NCBI GenBank assembly: GCA_043808095.1
Contig: JAZDFF010000031.1
Span: 37,073 to 101,072, forward strand
Direction of reading: 5' to 3'
DNA length: 64,000 nucleotides
From: Candidatus Omnitrophota bacterium
GTDB taxonomy: Bacteria; Omnitrophota; Gorgyraeia; JAZDFF01
Below, one piece after another: positions 5,744 to 38,957 of this stretch (position 1 is its first letter; every line of letters starts with the position of its first letter). The translations under genes and the position numbers were made by a program. Under the pieces are notes generated by a model, which was not told the origin of the DNA, made no database searches, and worked only from the letters and a program-made list of their open reading frames with translations.

Positions 5744-5887
5744 GAAATGATTACAGTGATTTTTCCCGCCACAAAGATTGGCGGGTCCGCCAAAGCATTA
5801 TGGCGGAAAAAGAGATTACAGTGATTAATTACCGTAATCAATGTTAATAATCACTGGAATCATAACTAATTTTTTAACAGGAATAAC

Positions 5888-6520
5888 ATGAGACATAGAG
5901 TCCTTCGATACCGTCTGAATCGTTTTACCAGTTTTCGGAAAGCAACCCTAAAAAGTCTTGCCAGGGCCGTACTTTTGAATCAGAGGATTAAGACTACCAA
6001 GACGAAGGCCAAGGCCGCCGCAAGGTTGGTAGAAAAATTGATCAGCCTGGGCAAGGCGGATACCCTTTCCGCAAAGCGAAGGGCATTTGCCATACTGACT
6101 GATCACAAATTAGTAAGTTTATTGTTCAATGATATCGCGCCTCGTTTTAAAACCAAAAAAGGCGGTTACACTCGGGTTATTTTGTGGAAAAACCGCCGAG
6201 GAGATAATGCGCAACTGGCGGTTTTGGAACTGACTGAGATTGCTATTAAAGAAAAATCCAAGCCAAAGCCGAAGGAAAAGGCAGAAAAACCAACTGCGCC
6301 TAAACCTGAGGTCGAAGCCAAAGAAGAGGCTCAGAAGCCGGAAAGGCCTAAGATTGTAAAACCTAAGCCGGAGAAACCAAAAGAAGAAAAACACGAAGAG
6401 AAAAAGAAAGAAACGGTAGCTCCCCCAATTAAAGAAGAGCATAAAGAGACCAAAAAACCATCCAAAAAATTCTTTGGTGGCCTGAGAACATTCTTTAAAA
6501 AGCAAAAAGATTCTACCTAG
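5888..6520 (+). CDS. rplQ: 50S ribosomal protein L17 with a long Lys/Pro/Glu-rich C-terminal extension
   Basis: The L17 core covers aa 1-120. A low-complexity KPKPEKPKEE tail of about 90 aa follows. Confidence 0.85.
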   Translation: MRHRVLRYRLNRFTSFRKATLKSLARAVLLNQRIKTTKTKAKAAARLVEKLISLGKADTLSAKRRAFAILTDHKLVSLLFNDIAPRFKTKKGGYTRVILWKNRRGDNAQLAVLELTEIAIKEKSKPKPKEKAEKPTAPKPEVEAKEEAQKPERPKIVKPKPEKPKEEKHEEKKKETVAPPIKEEHKETKKPSKKFFGGLRTFFKKQKDST

Positions 6521-27385: not shown

Positions 27386-29014
27386 TTACTTAGTAACCTT
27401 GTTCTTCTTTAACTCAATGATAAACTCACTCCTAACGCCAACCTTACTTTCCACTCCAATGCTCCCGCCATGTTCCTTAATTATCCCGTGGGTAATAGAC
27501 AGTCCTAGGCCTGTTCCGGTTTCCTTGGTGCCGTAAAATGGGTCAAAGATATGAGGAAGGTCTTTTGTCTGAATACCGGCTCCTGTATCCTTAATGCTTA
27601 TCTCAACCCAACCAGGCTCCTTATCTACAGTCTTTATGGTCAGGATTCCGCCCTGTGGCATTGCATCGAGCGCGTTGAGGATGATATTTAAGAACGCCTG
27701 TTTTATCTGAACCGGGTCAAGGTTTAGGATAGGATTTGTAGAGTTAAATTCTTTGACTAAGGCAACTTTCTTTTTTAATAAATCATTGGTTAAAAGCGAA
27801 AATGTATCTTCTAATAATTGGTGGATATCGCAGTCTTGTAGCTTAAGAGGGGTGGGCCTGGCAAAGTCAAGCAGGCCGTGGACGATATTATTGATTTTAT
27901 CTACCTCAGAGCCGACAATCCTTTGAAATTTCTCCAAGAATTCCGGATTGTCTTTATTTTCCTTAAGATACTCGGTAAAGGTCTTAATCGAGGTTAAGGG
28001 ATTCTTAATTTCATGGGCCATGCCTGCGGCTAGCGTTGCAACTGCCTTCATTTTCTCTGAGCGACGTATCTCTTCCTCCAGGCGTTCTTTTTCCAGTGCC
28101 AGGGAAGAGAGAGTGCCTTTGAAAAACAGTCGATCAATGATTTTCTGGATTCTGTCTTTGACAGGGTTAAAAAATAGGGCAATTACAAACGCCGCAAGGA
28201 TTGAAGCAACAAGAGAGCTATAGCCCATAAAAGTATGTAACAAGCGTTCAAGGAGCATAACAAAAATTAGATAGGTTGCTGTGATAAAGGCAACCAGAAG
28301 AGAATAAACTAGGCCTTTTTGAATGACTACTTTTATGTCCATGAGTTGGTGTTTGATTATTGCATAGGCCGACACAAAAATAAATATCGGAACAAGATAA
28401 TTACTAAATGGATTAAGAGGATAAAAATGCAAGTTATACATATAAGCCAAATTTGATAGGCCTCCTATATAACCGATAATAGTTGCCCAAAATAAATATT
28501 TTAATTGATTTTTTTTAGTTCCTGTTGATTTTCGATATTTCACATAGAAAAGCCTTTCTGCATAAATAACTGTTATTAAAAAATAGTACCATGTTAGGAT
28601 ATAAAGTGGCCCAACAAAAAAAGAATACTTGATAAATTGATTTGGAATTACTTTGTTAAGATATAATTTAGATGGAAATGTTAATAGGAAGATAATGGCA
28701 ATGACATAAGCAGATTTAAGAATAAAAGCTTTTTTAATATTTAATAATTTGACGACAAAATGTAAAAATAGCACCGGAATCAAAATTACTCCGATATGTT
28801 CCAATTTTCCAAACAGAAGCACCAAATTTTCTTTACCGATCCATCCAATCCAAGATTGACAAAAACTCCATTCAGCAATACATAAACAGAATATAAAAAA
28901 TATTTTGTTTACTGTTTGTTTTCTATTAGAAAAAAATACAAAAATACCAAGAGCAAGTGAAGTAAAACTCGAGAATAATAATGCAAACCTGTAATTAAAT
29001 TCGTAAAATTCCAT
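27386..29014 (-). CDS. Sensor histidine kinase with N-terminal 7TM domain (paralog of 15576..17189)
   Basis: The C-terminal part of the TM domain and the HK core are near-identical in places to 15576..17189 (AIIKHQLMDIKVVI..., AHEIKNPLTSIKTFTEYL). Confidence 0.8.
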   Translation of the reverse strand: MEFYEFNYRFALLFSSFTSLALGIFVFFSNRKQTVNKIFFIFCLCIAEWSFCQSWIGWIGKENLVLLFGKLEHIGVILIPVLFLHFVVKLLNIKKAFILKSAYVIAIIFLLTFPSKLYLNKVIPNQFIKYSFFVGPLYILTWYYFLITVIYAERLFYVKYRKSTGTKKNQLKYLFWATIIGYIGGLSNLAYMYNLHFYPLNPFSNYLVPIFIFVSAYAIIKHQLMDIKVVIQKGLVYSLLVAFITATYLIFVMLLERLLHTFMGYSSLVASILAAFVIALFFNPVKDRIQKIIDRLFFKGTLSSLALEKERLEEEIRRSEKMKAVATLAAGMAHEIKNPLTSIKTFTEYLKENKDNPEFLEKFQRIVGSEVDKINNIVHGLLDFARPTPLKLQDCDIHQLLEDTFSLLTNDLLKKKVALVKEFNSTNPILNLDPVQIKQAFLNIILNALDAMPQGGILTIKTVDKEPGWVEISIKDTGAGIQTKDLPHIFDPFYGTKETGTGLGLSITHGIIKEHGGSIGVESKVGVRSEFIIELKKNKVTK

Positions 29015-29168
29015 ATGCTTTATTTAAATAGAGAAGGGTTCATATTATCTTCGCCACTTTTTCTTTTTTTAACACCGCCAAGACGCCAAATTACTGTCTA
29101 TTGTGAGTCATTCGCAAAGGCGCAAAACCTCTGGCTGCTGATAGAGGGAGAGAGATTCCCGGACTTTT

Positions 29169-29441
29169 TTACCTATAAATTTCTCTTCTGTGGCCTAAGT
29201 CAATGATGTATATGATTAAGGTATTTTTATGGATAGTATAAATGATACGATAATCGCCTACGCGTAAAGAATAATCACCTGAAAGCTTACCTTGTAGGCG
29301 TTTTCCCTGATAAGGATCTGTTTTTAGAGTTTCTATGACGGTTATTAGGCGGGAATACAGTTTTTTATCTATTCTAAATATCTTTTCTAATGCTCCAGCC
29401 GCAAGCCGCGAAAATTCTATTTTAAACATCTGTTTTCTCAA
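29169..29441 (-). CDS. RelE/ParE-family type II toxin
   Basis: 90 aa. The C-terminal YRIIYTI...IIDLGHRREIY pattern is typical of RelE/ParE. Confidence 0.65.
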   Translation of the reverse strand: MRKQMFKIEFSRLAAGALEKIFRIDKKLYSRLITVIETLKTDPYQGKRLQGKLSGDYSLRVGDYRIIYTIHKNTLIIYIIDLGHRREIYR

Positions 29442-29709
29442 TTCTTGCGCGTAACTCTTCTAAAGAAACGGTTTTTCCGGCTTTAATTTCTTTCTTGGCC
29501 TGTTTTATCCTTCTTGCGGATTCTTTGTCCGAGAGGATCTCGATTGTTTCTAAAAATCCTTCATAATCATCGGGGCTTAGCATAATTGCGATCGGTTTTC
29601 CTCTTTTAGTAATAATATAGCGGTCTAGTTTGGTATCTATATTTCTTATTACCTTCGGTAATCCCGGGCGCAACGCCTTTAACGTAATGGCATTAACCAT
29701 TTTAACCAC
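29422..29709 (-). CDS. Phd/YefM-family antitoxin
   Basis: 95 aa. It overlaps the downstream toxin gene and has a Phd/YefM-like N-terminal fold signature. Confidence 0.6.
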   Translation of the reverse strand: MVKMVNAITLKALRPGLPKVIRNIDTKLDRYIITKRGKPIAIMLSPDDYEGFLETIEILSDKESARRIKQAKKEIKAGKTVSLEELRARIEKTDV

Positions 29710-29755
29710 CTCCTGAATAAAGTATACACTAAAGAGTATACTTTGTCAAGGAAGA

Positions 29756-30133
29756 TTAGATTATCTTTTCGACCTTTTCGAGTAAATCTTTTGACTCGAA
29801 GGGCTTGACGATATAGTCAGAGGCGCCGCTTTTTACAGCCTCTGTTGCCATTTCTACGCTTTTATAGCCGCTGACTACCGCGATTTTCTGATTTGGAGAA
29901 AGGCCCTTAATCTGTTTTAAGATATCCAGGCCGCTAATCTTGGGCATCTTGATATCAAGAAGGATAAGGTCAGGTTTTTGCCCCTTTTTGAGGCATTCCA
30001 GGCACTCCTGGCCGTCTGTAGCAAAGGAAAGGTCATAGTCCTTGCCTAAAATCAGCCTCAGCGACTCGCGGATGCCTTCTTCGTCATCGATGCAGTGGGA
30101 AATCTCACCAAACAGACCGATGCCAAAGCACAA
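29756..30133 (-). CDS. Response regulator receiver domain protein, possibly 5'-truncated at the junction with the Rhs gene
   Basis: The REC motifs (DDEE, LLDIKMP, SGY, KPF) are complete. The N-terminal few residues are encoded antisense to the Rhs coding sequence, and the only candidate start is a TTG. Confidence 0.55.
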   Translation of the reverse strand: MCFGIGLFGEISHCIDDEEGIRESLRLILGKDYDLSFATDGQECLECLKKGQKPDLILLDIKMPKISGLDILKQIKGLSPNQKIAVVSGYKSVEMATEAVKSGASDYIVKPFESKDLLEKVEKII

Positions 30134-33100
30134 GTTTTAAACTTTACCTATGACTCGCTCAATCGCTTAACTAGTAAATCCGCAGGCGACAAGACATCGG
30201 TTACTTATCAATACGACAGCGGCCCATACGGCATCGGCCGCTTGAGCAAAATCCCAGATACCTCAGGCCAGACCGAGTTTTTCTACGACAATTTAGGCCG
30301 CGAGATTAAATCTATCAAGACTGTGAGCGCAATTACTTATACTGTTGAGCGCACCTATGATGCCCTGGATAGGCTCACCAGCCTTAAATACCCTGATAAT
30401 AGCATGGTCTTCTACGAGTATAATCCTCAGGGCATCCAAAATGTCCATAGTTATTCATCCGACACTAACGGCCTTAAATTGTATTTGAATTGCAATGGCT
30501 CCGATGGTTCAAGAAATTTTATAGATGCAACCGGCAAAAACGTTAGTGTTTATGGCAATGCCCAAATAGATACTGATCAATACCAGTTTGGCGGTGCCTC
30601 TGGTTTGTTTGACGGCAATGGAGATTATCTCTCATTAGCAGATAGTGATGACTGGAGCTTTGGTTCAGAAGATTTTACAATAGATTTTTGGGTGAGATTT
30701 AATGCATTACCGTCGTCTGGGGATGGGGCGACAATTCTAAGTCAAAGAGAGTCGACTATTAGATGGTATGTGACATTGTGGAACAGAAGTGGAACTTATG
30801 AATGGCATTTCCAGACATCGGATGTTTCTAATAGTATTGTGGTGGTAAAGGCTACGACTGTAGCCATTGATACTTGGTATCATATAGCGGTTGTCCGCGA
30901 TGGCAATAATTTTATGATATTCCAAGACGGCGTTCAAGTAGGCACTACTGTAGCGAGTGCTGATTCTGTACCTGATGTAGCAGGACCATTAGATATAGGA
31001 ACTTTTAATAGAATAGACGCTAATTTGAATGGTTGGTTAGATGAGTTAAGAATTTCTAAAGGTATAGCCCGCTGGACATCCAATTTTACTCCACCAGATG
31101 AATCTGATTACTCCCAGTATAACTATGAAACCTTCATTGCCAACATCGACTATTCACCCACCGGCCAGATTACCAAGATTGTTTATGGAAATGGCACCGA
31201 AACCAACTATGCCTACAATCCCAATACGCTGCGGCTATCGCATCTGACTACGGGTTTATCCGGTCAGGCCGCCACTCTGCAAGACCTGCAATACCAATTC
31301 GACAATGTGGGCAATATCTCAAACATAGCCGACTCAATAAATACTGCCACCCAATCATTCAACTATGATGATTTGAATCGCCTCATTCAGGCGCAAGGCG
31401 CTTACGGCGCATTTAGTTATACTTATGATTCTATCGGCAATATGACTAATAAAGAAGGAGTGGCCTTAACTTATGGCAAGGCCGGGAAACTTCCTCATGC
31501 TGTTACTCAATACGGCTCGACGCTAATTGACTACGACGTTAACGGCAATATGGCCACTAAAGACAACCTGCAATATACCTATGATGCGGAAAACCGCCTG
31601 ACTGAAGTGGAAGACACAACCGCCACCCAGCCACAAACCCTGAATATCAGCCTGCAGCCGGGTTGGAATTTTGTTTCTTTTGCTGTTCTGCCCTCGATTA
31701 CCACGATTAGCTCAGTATTGGCCTCAATCGCCGGAAAATACGACCAGGTTTCTCGATACAATTCAACAACCAGATCCTTCGAGCATTATGTGGGTAATTC
31801 TAAATACGACCAGTTTTCTACCTTTGAATATGGCAAGGGTTATCAGATTTATGTCACTTCAGCAACAGGCGCGGCCCTGACTGTCACCGGAAATATCCCT
31901 TCTTCATTGGATATTTCGCTAAAATCCGGCTACAACCTGATTGCCTGTCCCCAAATGGCTGAGACACCGGTTGAAGAGGCGCTAAAACCTTTAAAATTAG
32001 GGGTTGATTATTCCAAGGTCCTGCATTATAATAAAAACTTAGCGCTCTTTGAAAAGTATGACGCAGAAAGCCACGAGTTCTCAAGCCTGAATCCGGGCGA
32101 GAGTTATTATCTCTATTGCCTGAAAAATACGAGCTGGGTGGCGCAGAATACCGCGCCGACGACAACTTTTGCTTATGACGGCGACGGCGGAAGGGTAAAG
32201 AAGACAGTCGGCTCAAATACCACCACCTACATCGGCTCGCTGTTTGAAAAAGACTCAAGCGGCAAGACTACTAAGTATATTTTCTCGGGAGCAAATCGGG
32301 TCTGCACAGTTGAATCAACCGGCGATAAATACTTCCATCATTCGGATCATCTGGGAAGCAGTAACGTCGTGAGCGACGACAACGGCCAGCAAATTGGCCT
32401 CACCGAATTCACTCCCTACGGCTCAGTTTCACAACAGGCCGGCACCTTTGACCCCAAACACAAGTTTACCGGAAAAGAACTCGACGCGAGTACGGGGTTG
32501 TATTTTTACGGCGCCCGCTACTACGACCCTACCATCGGGAGATTCATAACTGCCGATACGATTGTCCAGTCGCCCTACGATCCCCAAAGCCTGAATAGGT
32601 ATTCTTACTGTCGAAACAACCCTCTAAACTACACTGACCCGACTGGGCATAGTTGGAAGAAGTTTTGGAATAGCTTTGCTGGAGCGTTTGTAGCTGTTGC
32701 CCTTGCTTTTGTGCTTGGTCCTGCTGGGTTGTACTGGGTAGGTTCAACCATGGCCTGGGCAATCGGAGGGGCGGCAGGAGGAGCCCTCACAGGTGGACTT
32801 GAAGGCGGTTGGAAGGGTGCTTTAATAGGCGGGGCTCTAGGAGGTGCCCTAGGTGGTTTTGGCGCTTGGGGAGTAAGGGAATTTGGAGCTGGTTTTGGCT
32901 ATGGGATGTTAGCTGCCGGTGCAGGAGTGGCCGGCGCTACCGATAGCTGGGATAGCTTTGCAGGAGGAGTTGTCGGAGGAATTGCTGGAGCAGCAGTTGG
33001 GAATATTTGGAATGATTTTACTGGTGCACAGTCAGGAGTTAATAGAAATGATTTGGCTGCACAAACTGAACAATTAAAACAAGCCCAGCAAGCCCTTAAT

Positions 33101-33553
33101 ATAGAGCCGAATGAAACGATTAGAGTAGGCACAAGAGATGCAGTTTTAAATGCCGACCATCAATTAATACGAAGACAAAATGGTATGATTGTGGAGGCTG
33201 GTGCTGGTGAAGGTGGCAAGATGACAGTTTTCCAATATAATCCCCAAGATTATATTAATCCTGCTTCTCGTGTAAATCTAGCACCTACTCAAAAGCACAC
33301 CTTATCTGCTCTGTATGAAGGTAAACTACATTTACGATGGTCTAATCCTGTCCCTGTTAATTCAGCAAAACTAGATACTTTAATTAGCGGAGTTCAATCA
33401 ATATGGTCGGCTGCAAATTATGCTGCTGGAGCATTTAATAGTAACTATGCTATAAATACTTTTGTTTACGGTTCAGCGCCACTTGGAACAAAAATAACAG
33501 GTCTACATACATGGAGACCGAGTTTCTCGGGTAATTATGGGAAGGACCAATGA
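30095..33553 (+). CDS. Rhs/YD-repeat toxin, N-terminally truncated: YD repeats, LamG-like insert, RHS core ending DPTGH, glycine-zipper C-terminal toxin domain
   Basis: Repeated YD motifs (TYQYD, TYTYD, FAYDGDGGR), the core YFYGARYYDPTIGRFITADT...NYTDPTGH, then a unique 300-aa C-terminus. The ORF begins mid-repeat with a GTG. Confidence 0.8.
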   Translation: MGNLTKQTDAKAQVLNFTYDSLNRLTSKSAGDKTSVTYQYDSGPYGIGRLSKIPDTSGQTEFFYDNLGREIKSIKTVSAITYTVERTYDALDRLTSLKYPDNSMVFYEYNPQGIQNVHSYSSDTNGLKLYLNCNGSDGSRNFIDATGKNVSVYGNAQIDTDQYQFGGASGLFDGNGDYLSLADSDDWSFGSEDFTIDFWVRFNALPSSGDGATILSQRESTIRWYVTLWNRSGTYEWHFQTSDVSNSIVVVKATTVAIDTWYHIAVVRDGNNFMIFQDGVQVGTTVASADSVPDVAGPLDIGTFNRIDANLNGWLDELRISKGIARWTSNFTPPDESDYSQYNYETFIANIDYSPTGQITKIVYGNGTETNYAYNPNTLRLSHLTTGLSGQAATLQDLQYQFDNVGNISNIADSINTATQSFNYDDLNRLIQAQGAYGAFSYTYDSIGNMTNKEGVALTYGKAGKLPHAVTQYGSTLIDYDVNGNMATKDNLQYTYDAENRLTEVEDTTATQPQTLNISLQPGWNFVSFAVLPSITTISSVLASIAGKYDQVSRYNSTTRSFEHYVGNSKYDQFSTFEYGKGYQIYVTSATGAALTVTGNIPSSLDISLKSGYNLIACPQMAETPVEEALKPLKLGVDYSKVLHYNKNLALFEKYDAESHEFSSLNPGESYYLYCLKNTSWVAQNTAPTTTFAYDGDGGRVKKTVGSNTTTYIGSLFEKDSSGKTTKYIFSGANRVCTVESTGDKYFHHSDHLGSSNVVSDDNGQQIGLTEFTPYGSVSQQAGTFDPKHKFTGKELDASTGLYFYGARYYDPTIGRFITADTIVQSPYDPQSLNRYSYCRNNPLNYTDPTGHSWKKFWNSFAGAFVAVALAFVLGPAGLYWVGSTMAWAIGGAAGGALTGGLEGGWKGALIGGALGGALGGFGAWGVREFGAGFGYGMLAAGAGVAGATDSWDSFAGGVVGGIAGAAVGNIWNDFTGAQSGVNRNDLAAQTEQLKQAQQALNIEPNETIRVGTRDAVLNADHQLIRRQNGMIVEAGAGEGGKMTVFQYNPQDYINPASRVNLAPTQKHTLSALYEGKLHLRWSNPVPVNSAKLDTLISGVQSIWSAANYAAGAFNSNYAINTFVYGSAPLGTKITGLHTWRPSFSGNYGKDQ

Positions 33554-34482
33554 TAAAAAAATATTATATAATCGGTATTATAATATTAGTTTTTTTTACA
33601 GCAAAAGGCTTTGCAATAGAAGAGGTTAATATGTATCACGAATTGAAAAAAATTGATAAGTCTGGTATTTGGAAAAATATTTGGTGCGATGGGTATGAAA
33701 TACATCTATGTAACTTGCCTTTCTATAAAAGAGGAACAAAGTTATTTGAAGTAGAAAACCGTAAATTTATGCTTATAGGAAATCGTGAATTATCGCCTGA
33801 TGCAAAGAAAATAGCATTTACACTTGAGACTTATAAGCATAGAGCTTATCAGAATATTATTCGTACAGATCTCTATATAATGAATAGCGATGGAACAAAC
33901 CTTACGAAATTACCAACCGATGTATTTGAAAATATCTTTCTAATCGGTTTTTTAGGAGACGGCAAGCTTGTATTGGAACATTCCGAAGTAGAAAATTACC
34001 TTCATAAACCAGAAACTCGGGTAATCTATACCATAGACCTAAATACAAATAAAATTAATAAATTTGCTAATCAAAAAATTTCAATTAGTAGTCTCAATGC
34101 TTCTGCGAAAGGTGATTTATTAATATGCCCAGAACAGAATATGACTATTGTTTATGATGTTGAAAATAATGCAACCAAAAAAATGAATATAAAAATGGAT
34201 GCGCCTGTTCTGTCACCGGATGGTAAAAAAATTCTTTTCAGACGCGGCGATATGATGGGAAGTTATTACATTGTTAATATTGACGGAACTAATGAAGAAT
34301 TGTTGCTGTCAGATGAGAAGATTCGATATTTACTCAAAGGTTCTGGAGATTATAGAGATTTAGTCTATGCGAGTTGGTCTCCCGATTCAAGATTCCTCTT
34401 GTTTACTGAATCTTCGGACCTACAAAAAGGTAAGTCGTTTGTATTAGATATTGGCTCTAAAGAGATAGTTAAGATAAGGTAA
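33550..34482 (+). CDS. Putative Rhs immunity protein: secreted/anchored TolB/PD40-like beta-propeller protein
   Basis: Start overlaps the Rhs stop (ATGA). There is an N-terminal hydrophobic segment and PD40-like segments (DGTNLTKLPTD, SPDGKKILF, WSPDSRFLLF). Confidence 0.4.
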   Translation: MIKKYYIIGIIILVFFTAKGFAIEEVNMYHELKKIDKSGIWKNIWCDGYEIHLCNLPFYKRGTKLFEVENRKFMLIGNRELSPDAKKIAFTLETYKHRAYQNIIRTDLYIMNSDGTNLTKLPTDVFENIFLIGFLGDGKLVLEHSEVENYLHKPETRVIYTIDLNTNKINKFANQKISISSLNASAKGDLLICPEQNMTIVYDVENNATKKMNIKMDAPVLSPDGKKILFRRGDMMGSYYIVNIDGTNEELLLSDEKIRYLLKGSGDYRDLVYASWSPDSRFLLFTESSDLQKGKSFVLDIGSKEIVKIR

Positions 34483-34616
34483 TTTACAAGGCGAATTCCG
34501 GGGAATTCCGGGGACACACACGTAATTCACGGATTATTTGAATTTCATAAAATTACTAGACGCTTTATTTAAACACTTGGAAAATAAGGACAGCGACTAT
34601 TTATTTTTATATCTAA

Positions 34617-35981
34617 GCAAGTTCGCTCTTTGAAAAAGACTCAAGCGGCAAGAGCACCAAATACATTTTTTCAGGCGCAAACCGGGTCTGCACAGTTGAA
34701 TCAACGGGCAATAAGTATTTTCACCACTCAGACCATTTAGGCTCAAGCAATGTCGTTAGCGATGCCAATGGCGCTCAAGTCGGCCTGACTGAATTCACTC
34801 CCTACGGTTCAGTCTCAAAACAAACCGGCACCTTTGACCCCAAACACAAGTTCACCGGCAAAGAACTCGACGCGAGTACGGGGTTGTATTTCTACGGCGC
34901 CCGCTACTACGACCCTACCATCGGGAGATTCATTACTCCTGATTCAATAGTTCAAGCTCCAAGCGACCCACAGTCACTAAACCGATATTCTCAATCCCGG
35001 AACAACCCAATCACCTATATTGATCCCAATGGTCGATGGTTCTGGGCTGCTATAATTATTGGTGCTATTTTAGGGGGAGGTTCAGCAGCGGCAAATCACC
35101 AGCCTATATGGCAAGGTGTGCTTATGGGAGCTTTAGGGGGTTTGATGATTGGTGGAGGAGCAGCTGCTTTTGGTTTTTGGGGAGCAGTAGGAGGTGGAAT
35201 GATTGCCGGTGCATCTAATTCTGCTGTGTTTGGAGGCAATATTGGATTTGGTGCTCTTATTGGCGGTCTGGGAGCTGGCATAGGTTATGGTTTAGGTTCA
35301 TGGGCAAGTGGATGGAATGAGGGTAGTTTTTGGGGACAATTAGGTGCAGCAGTAACTGCAGGCAGCGTCGCAGGCGGAGTAGGAGCAGAACTTCAAGGTG
35401 GTAAATTCGGCCAAGGCGCGGGGATGGGAGCAGCATATGGGGCTGCTGGATTTTTTGGATCAAAAGCAGGCAATTGTCTTGACCCACGTATTCGTCAGGC
35501 ACAAAAATATGAACAAGAAGTTAGAAAAATGCACGCTCTTAATAGCAAAAATAACGACATGATAAAGATTGATGTTGGTGCGAGACCGGCGGTAGGTCCT
35601 GCAGATCATCGTTTTTTATTGAAATGGGAGATGGGTTCAAGATATCCAGGAAGTGGCCCTATAGAAACTACAAATACTATGGGCGATCTATCAAATTGGC
35701 CAACCTATAGGCATACTCAAAGTGCTATCAAATCGGGAATGGCACACTATGCTACCGCTGAAGTCAGCGCATCAGGTTTAGTTGATGCAATAGCCCTTTA
35801 CGAGCAGTATTGGGTTAATACGAATACAATTTATAGTGGTGGGAGTTATAATAGTAACTATGCCATAAATACTGTAATCTATAGTGCAGGTGGAACTGTG
35901 CCAGGAGGATTGGGCTTGACCCCCGCTTTTGGTACTGTACCCGCTTCCGCATTCTATCCCTATATACCTAAAGAACGATGA
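34617..35981 (+). CDS. Orphan Rhs C-terminal cassette (displaced rhs-CT): copy of the Rhs core end plus a divergent glycine-zipper CT domain; lacks an N-terminus
   Basis: Nucleotide identity to 32240-32560 is high. The translation LFEKDSSGKS...YFYGARYYDPTIGRFITPDS...DPNGR is followed by a different CT, whose C-terminal motif NSNYAINT is shared with the main CT. Confidence 0.65.
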   Translation, partial: ASSLFEKDSSGKSTKYIFSGANRVCTVESTGNKYFHHSDHLGSSNVVSDANGAQVGLTEFTPYGSVSKQTGTFDPKHKFTGKELDASTGLYFYGARYYDPTIGRFITPDSIVQAPSDPQSLNRYSQSRNNPITYIDPNGRWFWAAIIIGAILGGGSAAANHQPIWQGVLMGALGGLMIGGGAAAFGFWGAVGGGMIAGASNSAVFGGNIGFGALIGGLGAGIGYGLGSWASGWNEGSFWGQLGAAVTAGSVAGGVGAELQGGKFGQGAGMGAAYGAAGFFGSKAGNCLDPRIRQAQKYEQEVRKMHALNSKNNDMIKIDVGARPAVGPADHRFLLKWEMGSRYPGSGPIETTNTMGDLSNWPTYRHTQSAIKSGMAHYATAEVSASGLVDAIALYEQYWVNTNTIYSGGSYNSNYAINTVIYSAGGTVPGGLGLTPAFGTVPASAFYPYIPKER

Positions 35982-36385
35982 GCAAAATGAAGCAAAGTAT
36001 TATAGTACTCTCTATAGTATTAATTACAATTTATTTGTTAAATAATAATAGAGGAATCGCTATGGAGGATAAACTAGATCACAAGACTGTCATTAAAGAA
36101 GAATTAAAACAGATAGAGATTTCCGATGGAGTTAGTAAAAAGGAGGCAATTATTATTGCTCAGAATGAATTAATTAAAGATGGACTTGAAAAAGAGTATT
36201 ACATTTCTAAGCCAATAATAACGGAAAGTAAGTTGGTAGACGGGTGTTGGTTTGTTAGGTTTAACATGAAATTTAAATTCGGATATATATTGGAAAAAAT
36301 ATTATTTCTTGGAAGATGGTGCGGATACCATATTGAAAAGAAATCAGGCGAAATAAAAATGAAAGATTGGGGTCCTGACTTATAA
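35978..36385 (+). CDS. Small secreted/membrane-anchored protein, candidate immunity protein for the orphan CT
   Basis: ATGA overlap with the orphan CT. It has an N-terminal signal/TM segment and is paralogous to 37344..37712. Confidence 0.35.
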   Translation: MSKMKQSIIVLSIVLITIYLLNNNRGIAMEDKLDHKTVIKEELKQIEISDGVSKKEAIIIAQNELIKDGLEKEYYISKPIITESKLVDGCWFVRFNMKFKFGYILEKILFLGRWCGYHIEKKSGEIKMKDWGPDL

Positions 36386-36568
36386 ATAAAAAATCATAGA
36401 TATCTTTGTTCTCAAATGCAATTTAAGAAATAGGAGTTCTTATACCAATTTTTATATAGACTTATAAAGAGGCATTTATGAAAAGAGCACTTCTAGTCAG
36501 CATAAGCAATAATGGTGTCAGAACTCAATAACCCTTTTAATATATAAAATTGTCGTGTAAAAATTCCG

Positions 36569-37263
36569 GGGACACGTACCTTTTATTTAACAAATAATAT
36601 CAGATGACGTAGAAACATCCATGAGTCCACGAATGGCAAGAATTGTTTTTTCTAATATGCCTCATCACATAGTTCAGCGAGGTAATAGAAGGCAGGATGT
36701 ATTTTTTGAAGATGAAGACCGCGAGATTTATTTACGTTTATTAAAAGAACAGATACAAAAGTATGAAGTCCAAGTATGGGCGTATTGTCTTATGAGTAAC
36801 CACGTACATTTAATCGTTGTTCCCGCCAATAAAGATTCTTTAGCGAAAGCCATAGGAGAAACCCATAAAAGATATACCAGAATGATCAATTTCCGAGAAG
36901 GATGGCGTGGATATCTTTGGGAGGGTAGATTTAAGAGTTTTCTCTTGGATGAAAAGTATGTCTATGCCGCTGTTCGTTACGTTGAGAGAAATCCGGCAAG
37001 AGTTAAGATTGTAAAAAGAGCGGAAGATTACCCTTGGTCAAGTGCCAAGGCCCATATTAAACGTCTAAATGGAACCGTCTTAAGTGATTTCTATCTCTTA
37101 GATGAAATAGCAGATTGGTCAGATTATTTACGCCAGGAGGATAAAGAAGAAGACTTGAAGATATTTAGGCGTCATGGCAGTGTGGGTAAACCAATAGGGG
37201 ATGCTAAATTCATAAAACGGACTCGGATTAATCAGTTCAATTAGGTACGTGTCCCCGGAACTT
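36569..37263 (+). mobile_element. REP-associated tyrosine transposase (RAYT/IS200-like) unit with flanking inverted REP-like sequences TTCCGGGGACACGTACC
   Basis: ttccggggacacgtacc at 36569-36585 and its reverse complement ggtacgtgtccccggaa at 37247-37263 bracket the tnp ORF. A related gaattccggggaattccggggacacacacg lies at 34491-34522. Confidence 0.65.
36621..37244 (+). CDS. IS200/IS605-family Y1 (HUH) transposase, RAYT-like
   Basis: HUH motif SNHVHLIV, a downstream conserved Tyr region (YVERNPARVKIV...YPWSS), and a typical N-terminus MARIVFSNMPHHIVQRGNRRQDVFF. Confidence 0.75.
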   Translation: MSPRMARIVFSNMPHHIVQRGNRRQDVFFEDEDREIYLRLLKEQIQKYEVQVWAYCLMSNHVHLIVVPANKDSLAKAIGETHKRYTRMINFREGWRGYLWEGRFKSFLLDEKYVYAAVRYVERNPARVKIVKRAEDYPWSSAKAHIKRLNGTVLSDFYLLDEIADWSDYLRQEDKEEDLKIFRRHGSVGKPIGDAKFIKRTRINQFN

Positions 37264-37343
37264 ACAATTTATAGTATTGGTAGTAGCGTTCCAGGATGTG
37301 TGCAAGCACCAGAATTTTCTAAATTTCCTTATAGAAAATAAAA

Positions 37344-37712
37344 ATGATAATACTTATAAACAAATTTATTATACTGAGTTTGGTTATACTACTTATATTT
37401 CTGAAGCCTAAAATTGGAGGCGCTATGGCTGAAAGACCGATTCAAGATGAAATGCAAATAAAGGTTGATTTGTCAGATGGCGTTAATAAAGAAGAGGCGA
37501 TAATTCTTGCAAAGAACTACTTAATACATAAAGGGCTAGAGAAAAATGTAATCATTTTTAAGGCCAAAGTTAGAGAAAGTCGGTTATTTAAAGAATGTTG
37601 GACTGTTTACTTTCCTCCATCTCCTAATATTCGGGCAAGAATACCATTTGATTTTGTGGTAGACGTAGATAAAAAAACCGGTGAAATAAAACTAGCTGGT
37701 TGGAATAAATAG
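37344..37712 (+). CDS. Small secreted protein, paralog of 35978..36385
   Basis: Shared segments DGV.K.EAII.A.N.LI.KGLEK and KK.GEIK...W. A signal/TM segment is present at the N-terminus. Confidence 0.35.
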   Translation: MIILINKFIILSLVILLIFLKPKIGGAMAERPIQDEMQIKVDLSDGVNKEEAIILAKNYLIHKGLEKNVIIFKAKVRESRLFKECWTVYFPPSPNIRARIPFDFVVDVDKKTGEIKLAGWNK

Positions 37713-37978
37713 TAAAATTATACAGAGTAATAAAAATAATGGTGGCGGAACTCAATAAGTTTTTATAAATAAAAATTTAAAATGATAATTCATATAATTA
37801 CTTATTCCAGTACCACTTTTATTATTTTTAAATTGACATTTTAAGGGAAAGTAGTATTCTGGGTATGTAATCTTTTTACACATCAAACTACAATGGAGTG
37901 GAATAAGGTTAAAATAAGTAAATTCATAAAACGGCTCTTCAAATATGGGCTGTTTTTTATTTTAAAAGAGGAGGAAAA

Positions 37979-38383
37979 ATGAAGAAAAATTATTTATTAT
38001 TGTTTAGTATTTTATTACTATTTGGTTGTTCAACAGCCGGCTCTCACCTTAAATCGGTTCAGTCTGACGTAGCTGACAGGGTAACTGTAGGAAAAGTCCA
38101 ACGCGAGATTCGTATTGGTATGTCATCTGCTCAAGTGGCTGAAGTATTAGGCTCTCCTAATATTGTTAGCACTGACGAAAATCGGAGAGAGGTATGGATT
38201 TATGATAAGATTGCTACGGATGTTTCTTATTCAAATAATGAAGGCGGGGCTACTTTGCTACTATTAGGCATTACTGGTTCTTCGGGTGCAGTATCGAAAT
38301 CTCAAAGGACTTTAACAGTTATTATTAAGTTTGATGAAAACAGCAAAGTCCGAGATTTTGCTTATCATACATCTAGCTTTTAG
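37979..38383 (+). CDS. Lipoprotein, BamE/SmpA-OmlA-like
   Basis: Lipobox LLFGC. GMSSAQVAEVLGSPN...EVWIY resembles the SmpA_OmlA fold. Confidence 0.4.
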   Translation: MKKNYLLLFSILLLFGCSTAGSHLKSVQSDVADRVTVGKVQREIRIGMSSAQVAEVLGSPNIVSTDENRREVWIYDKIATDVSYSNNEGGATLLLLGITGSSGAVSKSQRTLTVIIKFDENSKVRDFAYHTSSF

Positions 38384-38404
38384 GACGAAAATAAAACAGA
38401 CAAA

Positions 38405-38957
38405 AATGCGAAGCTTTCCAAAATTATTCTTATGTTTATTTTTGAGTTTGGGACTAATTAGCTGTGTCAGTATTCCTACAGGTTTTCTAAAGCTTAACGA
38501 AGGCTATTTAGAAAAAAGGCAATTGCAAATAAGGCAATACGACACAACTAATGAAGAACAGATTATAACGGCTGTCGCTGGAGTTTTACAAGATTTAGGT
38601 TTTACTTTGGATGATAGCGAAACCAAATTAGGGTTGGTATCTGCTTCTAAAAAAGCTGATGCAATAAGTGCAGGTCAAGTTACCGGCGCAATCTTCCTTG
38701 ACATGTTATCCGCTTTAGGTGGTAATTATTCTAATAACGCCGCAAGGTGTGATAAATCTCAGGTAGTTAAAGCCTCGGTAATTACGAAACTAAGCCTTGA
38801 AGGAAATAAGATGGTTGTTCGAGTTACATTTCAGCGAATTGTTTGGAACATGAGTAATCAAATCAACAGAGTAGAAACTATTAATGATCCGGAAATATAT
38901 CAGAAGTTTTATGATAGTTTATCAAAAGCGATATTTTTGGAGGCTCAGAAAATATGA
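38405..38957 (+). CDS. Lipoprotein of unknown function (paralog pair member 1)
   Basis: Lipobox LISC. It is homologous to 38954..39388 (DTT...Q.V...LQDL.F..D......GS..SK ... DPE.YQ.F...L.KAIFL.AQ). Confidence 0.4.

What the first reader, a model, noticed from the sequence alone, without database searches (positions are those of the whole stretch)
36516..37760. REP-flanked RAYT (IS200-like Y1 transposase) splitting a duplicated small-protein module
The HUH transposase (SNHVHLIV, C-terminal Tyr region) is bracketed by perfect inverted 17-mers TTCCGGGGACACGTACC / GGTACGTGTCCCCGGAA. A third related copy (gaattccggggaattccggggacacacacg) lies at 34491-34522, exactly at the boundary between the immunity-like gene and the orphan CT. 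Paralogous small secreted genes (35978-36385 and 37344-37712), each followed by aataatggtgNcNgaactcaataa, sit on both sides. The REP-like sequence may therefore mediate the cassette shuffling in this Rhs locus.
Basis: seen in the sequence. Interest (0 to 1): 0.55.

Follow-up and report, generated by a model that had tools for sequence, protein, structure and literature searches.

The report
Tyrosine transposase embedded in Rhs array
A small DNA-cutting enzyme gene of the RAYT/TIRYT kind, bracketed by its own inverted recognition sequence, sits between the toxin-immunity cassettes of an Rhs toxin locus in an Omnitrophota genome, and every close relative with enough flanking DNA occupies the same kind of place, so this enzyme may help to rearrange such toxin cassettes.

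Summary
A 207-aa Y1 HUH protein (36621-37244) is bracketed by a perfect inverted 17-mer. A third variant copy lies just after the first immunity gene.

The element is best called a TIRtron: a RAYT-like "TIRYT" gene flanked by terminal inverted repeats carrying the published GGGGWSAS motif. It is neither a classical REP-flanked RAYT nor an IS200.

It does not split a duplicated module. The small genes are the immunity genes of two successive toxin cassettes. The right repeat abuts the last 25 codons of a third toxin, so most of that toxin is gone.

Two results are new.
- All 10 distinct loci whose enzyme is at least 62% identical (pairwise; 65% or more by best tblastn segment) and that have usable upstream DNA lie downstream of, and collinear with, an Rhs gene. 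Only 3 of 31 more distant relatives do.
- Cognate repeat copies recur directly after immunity genes at cassette junctions in several arrays.

A catalytic role in cassette shuffling is suggested but not shown.

The parts
30095..33553 (+). Rhs fragment 1: YD-repeat shell, Laminin_G_3 insert, Rhs core and toxin CT1. It is 5'-truncated at about 30090.
   Evidence: Pfam RHS_repeat and Laminin_G_3. tblastn to L004/L007 Rhs proteins starts at a position equivalent to about residue 1340 of a 2679-aa relative. Head-to-head fusion with a receiver-domain ORF.
33550..34482 (+). Gene after CT1 (310 aa, PD40 / beta-propeller-like), the putative immunity gene 1.
   Evidence: Pfam PD40, weak. Position directly after CT1 with a 4-nt overlap.
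34491..34527 (+). Solo TIR copy, variant TTCCGGGGACACACACGTAATT, preceded by a tandem partial duplication (GAATTCCGGG x2). It marks the junction between cassette 1 and cassette 2.
   Evidence: D12, I2. It is 100% identical over 24 nt to the left TIR of the L131 enzyme gene.
34623..35981 (+). Orphan 2: Rhs core remnant plus toxin CT2. There is no start codon until the TTG at 34884.
   Evidence: 85% identical over 300 nt to 32237-32536 (D1). NCBIfam Rhs_assc_core. Translation. The CT2 tail is 63.5% identical to the C-terminus of an intact 2549-aa Rhs protein in L213.
35978..36385 (+). Immunity-type gene 2 (135 aa, N-terminal hydrophobic anchor).
   Evidence: ATGA overlap with the CT2 stop. Homologues follow the toxin in L213 and L004.
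36508..36531 (+). 24-nt junction motif, copy 1 (AATAATGGTGTCAGAACTCAATAA), 32 nt before the left TIR.
   Evidence: The same motif lies next to TIR copies in L028, L131 and L214.
36561..36581 (+). Left terminal inverted repeat (core 36564-36580, TTCCGGGGACACGTACC).
   Evidence: I1. Conserved in homologues 18-190 nt upstream of the start codon.
36621..37244 (+). TIRYT gene (RAYT-like Y1 HUH nuclease/transposase). The annotated start may be 36633 (MARIV...).
   Evidence: Pfam Y1_Tnp. NCBIfam REP_Tyr_transpos 60 bits, below the cut-off of 80. 4ER8 by sequence and by fold. HUH and Tyr are invariant in 23 homologues.
37243..37263 (-). Right terminal inverted repeat (core 37244-37260). It overlaps the TAG stop codon.
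   Evidence: I1. The right arm starts within 6 nt of the stop codon in 8 of the 12 homologue copies examined and up to 82 nt after it in the rest. Homology with the closest relative L001 (84% nt) ends at 37265.
37264..37341 (+). Remnant of toxin CT3: the last 25 codons plus the stop (TIYSIGSSVPGCVQAPEFSKFPYRK*).
   Evidence: 19 of 22 nt identical to CT2 at 35825-35846 (D7). The tail resembles those of CT2 and L213 (IYS.G..VPG...F.PY). It ends 3 nt before the immunity-type gene 3.
37344..37712 (+). Immunity-type gene 3 (122 aa), a paralogue of gene 2.
   Evidence: 82% nt identity to L131 3051-3413, where it lies between two TIR(+) copies and has no toxin.
37735..37758 (+). 24-nt junction motif, copy 2 (AATAATGGTGGCGGAACTCAATAA).
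   Evidence: It aligns with the L131 post-immunity region, which carries an extra TIR that this site lacks.

Best explanation
The feature is a TIRtron. It is a single-copy gene for a RAYT-like Y1 HUH single-strand DNA nuclease/transposase (a TIRYT). The gene is flanked by a 17-21-nt terminal inverted repeat of the GGGGWSAS type, and the whole unit of about 700 bp spans roughly 36561-37263.

It belongs to an Omnitrophota clade of such genes that is found at the 3' side of Rhs toxin loci, collinear with the Rhs gene. Here it occupies the junction after cassette 2 of a degenerate Rhs array. That array consists of a 5'-truncated fragment with CT1 and imm1, then orphan CT2 with imm2, then the CT3 remnant with imm3. 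The right repeat abuts the last 25 codons of CT3. So toxin 3 has been removed and its immunity gene kept.

The third repeat copy at 34506 is a solo arm at the cassette 1/2 junction, and it is of a different lineage variant.

Inferred mechanism. Like E. coli TnpA-REP, the enzyme probably recognises its repeat on single-stranded DNA, most likely as a stem formed by two inverted arms, and then cuts and rejoins it. This would spread arms locally and cause deletions or fusions at arm boundaries. Because arms lie after immunity genes, such events would act on whole cassettes.

What is shown: the identity of the element, the anatomy of the locus, the conservation and co-variation of the arms, and the Rhs linkage. 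What is inferred: the catalysis, and any role in cassette shuffling.
For: Identity.
- Pfam Y1_Tnp, E 1.4e-15.
- 4ER8 is the only solved relative found by sequence. It is also the best fold match, E 1.2e-8 and TM 0.74, ahead of IS608/ISDra2 at TM about 0.6.
- HUH and Tyr are invariant in the family.

Arms.
- The 17-nt inverted repeat is perfect.
- The same arms flank homologues. Lineage-specific variants are changed on both arms: L212 GACGCGTAC, L007/L130 ACAATACTTAATT, L214 AATCTGGGGACACGTACTAATT, L172 ACGACACTTAATT.
- GGGGACAC fits the TIRYT consensus GGGGWSAS (PMC3733652; PMC6006769).
- There is no local hairpin at either end.

Discrete unit.
- Homology with the 85%-identical relative L001 ends 5 nt past the right arm.
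- The two copies in L172 are 97% identical while their flanks are 81% identical.

Anatomy.
- CT3 remnant.
- The imm2/imm3 family follows CT2-type toxins in intact Rhs genes.

Rhs linkage.
- 10 of 10 distinct loci at >=62% pairwise identity (>=65% best tblastn segment) with >=2.9 kb of upstream DNA have an Rhs gene upstream on the same strand.
- Only 3 of 31 loci at <=62% identity do. Fisher p = 2.6e-7.
- In those more distant loci the upstream genes are ordinary: 8 of 10 sampled had housekeeping-type Pfam families and 2 had no Pfam match.

Arms at junctions.
- Copies lie 7-40 nt after immunity genes in L007 (3 junctions), L209, L131 and the window, and 67 nt or more after them in L214 (3 junctions).
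- The arrangement is polar: 27 (+) against 1 (-) upstream of the gene, and 13 (-) against 3 (+) downstream.
Against: - No biochemical data exist for any TIRYT, so cutting and rejoining is assumed by analogy with E. coli TnpA-REP.
- The order of events at CT3 cannot be reconstructed. It could be insertion then deletion, or recombination between arms. No 5' part of CT3 is present left of the element.
- Homology between the window and L131 around imm3 stops at the gene ends and not at the arms. Precise arm-to-arm cassette transfer is therefore not seen.
- Solo arms of the same subtype elsewhere lie next to ordinary genes, so the repeat is not specific to Rhs.
- The Rhs linkage could reflect an old insertion that was inherited, or the tolerance of orphan arrays for insertions.
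- The 10 loci are not phylogenetically independent in a strict sense.
- The genome-wide copy number in the source genome is unknown.
Confidence: 0.72

Rival explanations
1. Classical RAYT/REP system. On this view the 17-mer is a high-copy repetitive extragenic palindrome scattered through the genome, the gene is its domesticated mobiliser, and its presence in the Rhs locus is incidental.
For: - The fold and sequence are closest to E. coli TnpA-REP, and the best NCBIfam hit is REP_Tyr_transpos.
- The 17-mer is dispersed in many genomes without an adjacent gene.
- In other genomes 55 of 102 non-TAATT copies have an inverted partner within 90 nt, which forms REP/REPIN-like hairpins.
- One Omnitrophota MAG (Gpa_28) has at least 10 copies on 8 contigs.
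Against: - The NCBIfam score of 60 is below the cut-off of 80.
- Each end here is a single non-palindromic arm with no hairpin, and there is no GTAG/GTGG foot.
- All 3 copies in the 64 kb are inside the Rhs locus.
- The arrangement matches the published TIRYT/TIRtron class instead.
- The 10 of 10 Rhs linkage is not incidental.
Confidence: 0.12
2. Conventional autonomous IS200/IS605-type insertion sequence that happened to land in a tolerant, decaying Rhs locus.
For: - The Pfam family is shared with IS200.
- L172 has two 97%-identical copies.
- Many metagenome contigs end within about 200 nt of the gene, as they do at repeats.
- The right arm directly truncates coding sequence in the window and in L172.
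Against: - IS200/IS605 elements have subterminal hairpins and no terminal inverted repeats. Here the reverse is seen.
- The NCBIfam IS200 score is 23.6 against a cut-off of 55.
- The gene is single copy in the window.
- The family is nearly absent from plasmids and phages at more than 60% identity.
- A chance landing cannot explain 10 of 10 collinear Rhs-adjacent positions among proteins only 60-85% identical to each other.
Confidence: 0.08
3. Dedicated cassette-exchange system. The enzyme and its arms form an integron-like device for Rhs toxin/immunity cassettes. Each cassette ends in an arm, the enzyme gene closes the array, and any upstream (+) arm paired with the terminal (-) arm defines an excisable single-stranded unit. 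That unit carries cassettes, with or without the enzyme gene, and can re-enter another Rhs locus.
For: - Arms lie directly after immunity genes in at least 6 arrays.
- The arrangement is strongly polar.
- The enzyme sits at or near the distal end of the array in all 10 loci, with Rhs genes of two architectures (SpvB/TcdB type and DUF6531 type) and non-syntenic downstream flanks.
- The window's solo arm is the variant of another lineage (L131), as if it arrived with a cassette.
- imm3 is shared with L131, where it lies between two arms.
- An arm is present in L131 and absent in the window at the same site after imm3.
Against: - No case was found of the same cassette in two arrays with homology ending at the arms.
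- L212, L213 and L130 have no extra arms.
- Local accumulation of arms around their enzyme gene is already known for REPtrons and TIRtrons and would give the same picture.
- No circular junctions or activity data are available.
Confidence: 0.2
4. Passive co-inheritance. A domesticated or inert gene was inserted once next to an ancestral Rhs locus and has simply stayed there. The arm copies at junctions would then be decayed local duplicates without function.
For: - RAYT-type genes are typically single-copy and vertically inherited (PMC5581495).
- The association is sharp at a clade boundary, as a single ancestral event would give.
- Phd/ParE genes adjacent in both the window and L004 indicate shared ancestry of the neighbourhood.
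Against: - Downstream flanks are otherwise not syntenic, and the Rhs architectures differ.
- Arms are kept as perfect or co-varying pairs in lineages only 60-70% identical in protein, which indicates continuing selection on the arm-enzyme pair.
- L172 shows a recent duplication or conversion of the unit.
- The closest relative, L001, has a different right flank starting exactly at the arm.
Confidence: 0.25

Closest known systems
TIRYT / TIRtron (Di Nocera, De Gregorio & Rocco 2013, BMC Genomics 14:522, PMC3733652)
   Same: A RAYT-like Y1 HUH gene flanked by long terminal inverted repeats rather than REP hairpins. The repeat carries the motif GGGGWSAS (here GGGGACAC). One arm overlaps the 3' end of the gene. 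Arm copies occur singly, as dimers and in clusters near the gene.
   Different: That paper describes no link to Rhs or other toxin loci, and Omnitrophota were not covered. This clade lacks the C-terminal HTH domain that Quentin et al. 2018 report for most TIRYTs. Partial 'stutter' copies beside the arms are not described there.
E. coli TnpA-REP / RAYT and its REPtron (PDB 4ER8; Nunvar 2010, Ton-Hoang 2012 and Messing 2012, named from my own knowledge and)
   Same: It is the closest solved structure by sequence and by fold. It shares the HUH plus single Tyr in a Y-x-x-x-N-P context. The gene is single copy and bracketed by inverted copies of its cognate repeat. The repeat is also dispersed without the gene.
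   Different: REPs are self-complementary hairpins with a GTAG foot and hundreds of copies. Here each arm is non-palindromic and no abundance is shown. The protein has an extra conserved region of about 80 aa at the C-terminus. The NCBIfam score is below the family cut-off.
IS200/IS605 TnpA (IS608, ISDra2)
   Same: Same Pfam family and the same catalytic core fold. The chemistry is presumably single-strand 'peel and paste'.
   Different: Those elements have subterminal hairpins and no terminal inverted repeats, and they occur in multiple copies. The fold match is weaker (TM about 0.6 over 105-115 columns). The NCBIfam IS200 score is far below the cut-off.
Rhs orphan toxin/immunity arrays formed by C-terminal displacement (Jackson et al. 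2009; Koskiniemi et al. 2014; E. coli Rhs elements with H-rpt insertion sequences; all from my own knowledge)
   Same: A main fragment is followed by promoterless orphan modules that keep a stretch of core homology (85% over 300 nt), each with a downstream immunity gene. Mobile-element genes are interspersed.
   Different: The associated gene here is a Y1 HUH enzyme with cognate sites at the cassette junctions. It is not an IS5-like H-rpt or an integrase. The association is conserved across a whole enzyme clade.
Integron (IntI plus attC-bounded cassettes), as an analogy of function only
   Same: There is an array of promoterless cassettes, each followed by a short recombination-type site that is presumably read as single-stranded DNA. 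One recombinase gene sits at the end of the array.
   Different: The enzyme class is unrelated (HUH nuclease versus tyrosine recombinase). The enzyme is at the distal end and not the proximal end. Cassette mobility is not demonstrated.

Membership tests
TIRYT/TIRtron (Di Nocera 2013) | Protein homologous to RAYTs with the HUH motif and the catalytic Tyr | tested here: met
   Pfam Y1_Tnp. HUH and Tyr120 invariant. 4ER8 is the best match by sequence and by fold.
TIRYT/TIRtron (Di Nocera 2013) | Gene flanked by long terminal inverted repeats unrelated to GTAG REP hairpins | tested here: met
   17-nt perfect (21 nt at 95%) inverted repeat at 36561-36581 / 37243-37263. No local hairpin. Conserved in homologues.
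TIRYT/TIRtron (Di Nocera 2013) | TIR carries the consensus GGGGWSAS | tested here: met
   GGGGACAC at 36568-36575 and its inverse. Consensus as quoted.
TnpA-Y1 subclass 2.1 (Quentin 2018) | Long protein with a C-terminal HTH-like domain (Bac_DnaA_C, HTH_23 or HTH_28) | tested here: not met
   No Pfam hit in the C-terminal 80 aa, or in three full-length homologues, even at E <= 10. The proteins are 203-231 aa.
RAYT/REPtron (Nunvar 2010; Bertels & Rainey 2011) | Flanking repeats are palindromic REPs (hairpin with a GTAG/GTGG foot) | tested here: not met
   Single non-self-complementary arms. Folding z-scores of the two element ends are between -0.02 and -0.82. There is no GTAG or GTGG at the arm ends.
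RAYT/REPtron (Nunvar 2010; Bertels & Rainey 2011) | The flanking 16-mer is highly abundant genome-wide (tens to hundreds of copies) | tested here: inconclusive
   Only 3 copies in 64 kb, all in the Rhs locus. The rest of the genome was not available.
RAYT/REPtron (NCBIfam NF047646 equivalog) | Score at or above the curated cut-off | tested here: not met
   60.4 bits against a cut-off of 80.
IS200/IS605 | Subterminal imperfect hairpins at both ends, no terminal inverted repeats | tested here: not met
   No significant hairpins. Terminal inverted repeats are present.
IS200/IS605 (NCBIfam NF033573 equivalog) | Score at or above the curated cut-off | tested here: not met
   23.6 bits against a cut-off of 55.
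Rhs orphan toxin/immunity cassette | Promoterless fragment that keeps Rhs core homology, then a variable C-terminal toxin, then a small immunity gene | tested here: met
   Orphan 2: core homology of 85% over 300 nt and Rhs_assc_core. The CT2/imm2 family pair recurs in intact Rhs genes of L213 and L004. Toxicity and immunity themselves are not testable here.
Integron-like cassette system (analogy) | The same cassette is found in different arrays with boundaries at the recombination site | tested here: not met
   Homology of imm3 between the window and L131 stops at the gene ends, 26-83 nt from the arms.

The most novel reading that the evidence does not exclude
A clade of TIRYT-type HUH enzymes and their inverted-repeat arms forms a single-strand-DNA cassette-handling system for Rhs polymorphic toxins. 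Each toxin/immunity cassette ends in an arm and the enzyme gene closes the array. Pairing of any upstream arm with the terminal inverted arm would allow excision, deletion or transfer of whole cassettes. That would explain how orphan arrays are built and pruned, including pruning that removes a toxin but keeps its immunity gene.
Probability: 0.2. Interest if true: 0.85.

Novelty: new variant of a known kind. Interest (0 to 1): 0.62.

Why it matters
How arrays of orphan toxin/immunity modules behind rhs, cdi and similar genes are assembled, shuffled and pruned is still explained mainly by homologous recombination at the conserved core. The downstream boundary and the source of new cassettes remain unclear.

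This analysis found an enzyme clade that is Rhs-linked in all 10 usable loci. It found cognate sites lying directly after immunity genes in several independent arrays. It also found two cases where an arm abuts truncated Rhs or toxin coding sequence: the window, where the downstream immunity gene is kept, and both copies in L172. In a third case (L131) an immunity gene stands alone between two arms. Together these give a concrete and testable candidate for the missing activity.

The result also gives the almost unstudied TIRYT class its first conserved genomic context, and hence a possible cellular role. In addition it shows that one 17-nt arm is conserved unchanged across several phyla, and it also occurs in archaeal MAGs.

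If the link proves passive, the result is still useful. It corrects the annotation from a generic 'transposase' to a TIRtron and documents how such elements disarm toxin cassettes.

Tried and rejected
- **Exact-protein look-up of the 207-aa ORF.** It found nothing. The deposited protein starts 4 codons later (P0001), and its look-up returned only a 2.8-kb independent contig.
- **Conventional hairpin ends.** DNA folding of both ends and both strands gave z-scores near 0. This reading was rejected.
- **Known RNA families in 33500-38500.** None at E <= 1. The promoter and terminator scan gave nothing above shuffle expectation.
- **Literature search.** No paper in the library holds the arm sequence. 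None links RAYT with polymorphic toxins, and the single RAYT-plus-Rhs hit was not read. Only 3 records (2 distinct works) mention TIRYT.
- **C-terminal HTH domain of subclass 2.1.** Not found.
- **Plasmid or phage carriage.** Only distant relatives (<60% identity) were found.
- **Same enzyme with a different cassette.** L209/L210/L211 and L214/L215 turned out to be the same loci at 99% identity, so they were uninformative.
- **The 24-nt motif as a degenerate inverted arm pairing with the TIR.** Partial complementarity can be drawn by eye, but the folding did not support it. It is left open.
- **Solo arms of the TAATT subtype as always toxin-linked.** Rejected. Of 10 sampled neighbours, 8 are ordinary or non-toxin genes and 2 have no Pfam match.
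- **Rhs linkage as a property of the whole protein family.** Rejected. It holds for the >=62% pairwise clade only.
- **Reconstruction of the event that removed CT3.** Neither simple insertion nor a single crossover fits the flanks, so it is left open.
Full report

Yes.
- The 17-mer TTCCGGGGACACGTACC lies at 36564-36580. Its exact reverse complement lies at 37244-37260.
- A 14/17 variant, TTCCGGGGACACACACG, lies at 34506-34522.
- That makes three matches at <=3 mismatches in 64 kb against 0.03 expected from shuffles. A looser search for the core finds nothing else in the window.
- The inverted repeat extends to 21 nt (I1).
- Between the arms is one ORF, 36621-37244. The deposited protein starts at 36633. 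It hits Pfam Y1_Tnp (E 1.4e-15).
- The two small genes 35978-36385 and 37344-37712 are 36% identical (E 2e-17).
- The 24-nt motif occurs twice against 0.00 expected.
- An independent short-read assembly reproduces 35157-37966 at 99.96% identity, so the order of parts is not an assembly artefact.
- The organism is a Candidatus Omnitrophota MAG.

**2. What is the gene?**

It is a RAYT-like enzyme, not an IS200-type transposase.
- NCBIfam ranks REP_Tyr_transpos first (60 bits) and IS200 far behind (24 bits). Both scores are below their cut-offs.
- The only solved structure found by sequence is E. coli TnpA-REP, 4ER8.
- An AlphaFold model (pLDDT 87, pTM 0.86) matches 4ER8 best: E 1.2e-8, TM 0.74 over 166 columns. 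IS608 and ISDra2 TnpA score TM about 0.6 over 105-115 columns.
- In 23 homologues the HUH motif (N60-H-V-H63) and Tyr120 in R-Y-V-E-R-N-P are invariant. So are several residues of an extra C-terminal region of about 80 aa.

**3. What are the flanking 17-mers?**

They are a conserved property of the protein family.
- Most homologues 62-74% identical to the window protein have the same arm 18-190 nt upstream of the start codon. In most of them its inverse begins at or within a few nt of the stop codon. In two (L002, L131) the two arms match only in part, and in L209 and L212 the right arm lies 32-82 nt past the stop.
- Where the arm differs, it usually differs on both sides. Examples are L212 (GACGCGTAC), L007 and L130 (ACAATACTTAATT), L214 (AATCTGGGGACACGTACTAATT) and L172 (ACGACACTTAATT).
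- This two-sided co-variation shows that the pair is under selection as an inverted repeat.
- Neither end folds into a local hairpin; z-scores lie between -0.02 and -0.82.

The literature already has a name for this arrangement.
- Di Nocera et al. 2013 called RAYT-like genes flanked by long terminal inverted repeats TIRYTs, and the whole unit a TIRtron. They noted a shared arm motif, GGGGWSAS (PMC3733652). GGGGACAC fits it.
- Quentin et al. 2018 equate TIRYTs largely with their subclass 2.1, which has a C-terminal HTH domain (PMC6006769). No such domain is detectable here.
- I therefore file this protein as a TIRYT in the 2013 sense, but not as a member of subclass 2.1.

**4. Is the arm a dispersed repeat?**

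Yes, in public genomes.
They come from Omnitrophota, Planctomycetota, Syntrophia, Aminicenantes, Thermotogae and others, and from archaeal Methanoregula MAGs.
- A few hits in high-GC actinomycetes are probably chance.
- Most copies have no adjacent enzyme gene.
- Two subtypes appear:
  - One continues ...GTACCGATCCC. It usually has an inverted partner, GGTACATGTCCCC, within 90 nt (55 of 102 copies), which gives REP/REPIN-like hairpins.
  - The other continues ...GTACCTAATT. This is the subtype of the window's right arm, and it is mostly solitary (6 of 32 copies have a partner).
- In the window's own genome nothing shows abundance. All three copies are in the Rhs locus.

**5. Anatomy of the locus**

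- **Rhs fragment 1 (30095-33553)** is itself 5'-truncated. Its YD-repeat homology starts at about 30090. That corresponds to about residue 1340 of a 2679-aa relative. It is fused head-to-head to a receiver-domain ORF on the other strand.
- It ends in toxin CT1, followed by a 310-aa beta-propeller-like gene.
- **Solo arm.** Nine nt after that gene's stop comes the solo arm with its duplicated 5' part.
- **Orphan 2.** About 100 nt further, at 34623, orphan 2 begins. It has 300 nt at 85% identity to the core region of fragment 1 (D1), Rhs_assc_core, no start codon before 34884, and then CT2.
- **imm2** overlaps the CT2 stop.
- **CT2 and imm2 form a family pair.**
  - The tail of CT2 is 63.5% identical to the C-terminus of an intact 2549-aa Rhs protein in L213.
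  - That protein is followed by a 128-aa homologue of imm2 and imm3.
  - L004 shows the same arrangement.
- **Right of the element.** The 22 nt starting 3 nt after the arm match CT2 at 35825-35846 in 19 positions (D7).
  - The frame reads TIYSIGSSVPGCVQAPEFSKFPYRK*. This resembles the tails of CT2 (VIYSAGGTVPGG...AFYPY) and of L213.
  - It ends 3 nt before imm3.
- **Conclusion on the small genes.** They are the immunity-type genes of cassettes 2 and 3. The element has replaced all of toxin 3 except its last 25 codons. The match is short, so I rate 'CT3 remnant' as probable, not certain.
- **Right boundary of the unit.** Homology with the closest relative (L001, 85% aa) ends 5 nt beyond the right arm, and its next genes are different (GmrSD_C, DUF1016). 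The arm is therefore the boundary of a discrete unit.

**6. The unexpected result: linkage to Rhs**

- The first homologues with long contigs all lay just downstream of giant Rhs/YD genes.
All four were the same.
- I combined these with 80 metagenome loci. Every distinct locus in the closest clade that also has at least 2.9 kb of upstream DNA has an Rhs gene upstream on the same strand. That is 10 of 10. The clade is defined as >=65% identity by best tblastn segment, which corresponds to 62-74% by global pairwise alignment.
- Among enzymes <=62% identical, 3 of 31 do. Three others have Rhs homology downstream (L172, L195, L148).
- Fisher p = 2.6e-7, with the caveat that the loci are related.
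- Ten sampled upstream neighbours of the distant group include TonB receptors, a sulfatase and a CoA ligase among others, two have no Pfam match, and none is a recognisable toxin.
- The 10 enzymes are mutually only 60-85% identical.
- The Rhs genes are of two architectures, SpvB/TcdB_midN and DUF6531. The genes beyond the enzyme differ from locus to locus.

**7. Arms at cassette junctions**

Copies of each locus's own arm variant recur after immunity genes.
- L007: after all three cassettes, at distances of 38, 7 and 17 nt.
- L209: 8 nt after the immunity gene.
- L131: 58 and 29 nt.
- Window: 9 nt.
- L214: all three junctions. There the arm opens a repeat module of about 330 nt, 95-100% conserved, that ends in a partial inverted arm.

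The arrangement is polar. There are 27 (+) copies against 1 (-) copy upstream of the enzyme gene, and 13 (-) against 3 (+) downstream.

Further observations fit the same picture.
- In L172, two units 97% identical sit in flanks that are 81% identical. Each has its right arm directly against Rhs YD-repeat coding sequence. This parallels the window's arm against CT3.
- In L131 the imm3 homologue (82% nt identity) stands alone between two (+) arms with no toxin.
- After imm3, L131 has an arm that the window lacks at the aligned position.
- The window's solo arm at 34506 is not the resident variant. It is identical over 24 nt to the arm of the L131 enzyme.
It lies 19-37 nt from arms in L028, L131 and L214.

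**8. How it most likely works**

What is shown:
- a RAYT-fold HUH/Tyr protein;
- a selected inverted-repeat pair;
- a discrete unit;
- a conserved position in Rhs arrays;
- arms at cassette ends;
- arms abutting truncated toxin or Rhs sequence.

What is inferred by analogy with E. coli TnpA-REP, which binds a REP stem-loop and cleaves and rejoins single-stranded DNA (summarised in PMC6006769):
- The enzyme probably acts on a stem formed by two inverted arms on single-stranded DNA.
- The two arms of the unit, 661 nt apart, could pair and extrude the gene.
- Any upstream (+) arm could pair with the terminal (-) arm in the same way. For example, 34506-34527 and 37239-37260 are 86% complementary over 22 nt (I2). 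This would extrude whole cassettes.
- Cut-and-rejoin at such stems would give local spread of arms, deletions ending exactly at an arm (as at CT3), and possibly excision of cassettes.

I commit to the following. The unit is a TIRtron whose activity, or whose arms acting as recombination points, removed toxin 3 (confidence about 0.7 for identity and anatomy). A role of the enzyme in Rhs cassette rearrangement in general I put at about 0.45. A dedicated cassette-exchange system I put at about 0.2.

Evidence against the strongest reading:
- Homology of imm3 between the window and L131 stops at the gene ends, not at the arms.
- Three of the ten loci have no extra arms.
- Solo arms elsewhere sit beside ordinary genes.
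- Clustering of repeats around their enzyme gene is already known for REPtrons and TIRtrons.

**9. Novelty and verdict**

- The element class is known but very little studied. Only 3 records (2 distinct works) in the library mention TIRYT.
- No paper in the library holds the arm sequence. None links RAYT-type enzymes with polymorphic toxins, and the one paper that mentions both RAYT and Rhs was not examined.
- I rate it a new variant of a known kind: an Rhs-array-linked TIRYT clade with arms punctuating the cassettes.
'REP', 'splitting a duplicated module' and 'mediates shuffling' are respectively imprecise, wrong and unproven.

Noticed in passing
window 34491-34510; also L045, L071, L085, L112, L128, L004 5663-5720, L001, L214 junctions: 'Stutter': just outside many arms lie one to three tandem partial copies. 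Each consists of 2-4 nt of flank plus the first 6-15 nt of the arm (for example GAATTCCGGG GAATTCCGGGGACAC...). 13 of 32 TAATT-type copies have TCCGG again within 40 nt upstream, where a 5-mer is expected in about 3.5% of cases. This might be a footprint of repeated nick, short synthesis and rejoin at the arm boundary, or it might be slippage at the G-run.
   Followed up: partly
window 29756-30133 (-) and 30090-30100: Rhs fragment 1 is 5'-truncated. It lacks roughly 1300 N-terminal residues compared with the L004 relative. It is fused head-to-head to a CheY-like receiver ORF whose first residues also look replaced. No full-length Rhs gene is in the window, so the whole locus is an array of fragments.
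   Followed up: partly
window 29167-29757 (-) versus L004 5883-6473: A Phd/YefM-ParE toxin-antitoxin pair upstream of the Rhs fragment is 77% identical in DNA to the pair that lies immediately downstream of the enzyme gene in L004, but it is inverted. This points to a rearrangement with one breakpoint next to the TIRtron.
   Followed up: no
window 37769-37845: The start region of imm3 (37331-37359) is repeated at 83% identity after the second motif copy (37769-37797). The repeat opens a 20-codon ORF (MIIHIITYSS...). It may be the stub of a fourth immunity gene.
   Followed up: no
L011-L128 (genome scan): The exact 17-mer is conserved across distant phyla and occurs in archaeal Methanoregula MAGs. 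In the hairpin-forming subtype the two arms differ at one fixed position (GGGGACACGTACC ... GGTACATGTCCCC). This gives a C/A mismatch on one strand and a G-T wobble on the other, a strand-marking asymmetry.
   Followed up: partly
L214 3627-4165, 5908-6505, 7936-8339: The cassette junctions hold a module of about 330 nt (arm, 24-nt-type motif, conserved leader, partial inverted arm) repeated at 95-100% identity. It looks like a non-autonomous derivative of the TIRtron. A second repeat family, GGACCAGGTCAC...GGGGACAGGTCA, which also fits GGGGWSAS, flanks it.
   Followed up: partly
L172 1017-1807 and 6161-6949; L007 3236-4456: Two TIRtron copies lie 5.1 kb apart in direct orientation, each followed at once by an orphan Rhs fragment. 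In L172 copy b a 406-aa ORF (4878-6098) directly precedes the unit, and in L007 an equally long AAA_14/DUF4143 gene lies upstream of the enzyme gene. Homology between the two ORFs was not tested. If they are related, this could be a passenger gene.
   Followed up: no
window 1-64000: Gene orientation is extremely one-sided. Of 58 ORFs of at least 150 aa, the only minus-strand one that does not overlap a longer plus-strand ORF is 27386-29014. The shorter minus-strand genes at 29167-30133 are the other exceptions.
   Followed up: no
window 32650-33000 and 35040-35440: Both CT1 and CT2 begin with a long glycine-zipper-like hydrophobic stretch (GxxxG runs). The immunity-type proteins have an N-terminal membrane anchor. 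This would fit a membrane- or periplasm-acting toxin.
   Followed up: no
L213 8061-8471 and 11498-11794; L002 4420-4992; L131 7268-7801: Further Y1_Tnp genes or fragments (about 30% identical, or truncated) lie beside the Rhs-linked enzyme gene in several arrays. More than one HUH lineage seems to gather there.
   Followed up: no
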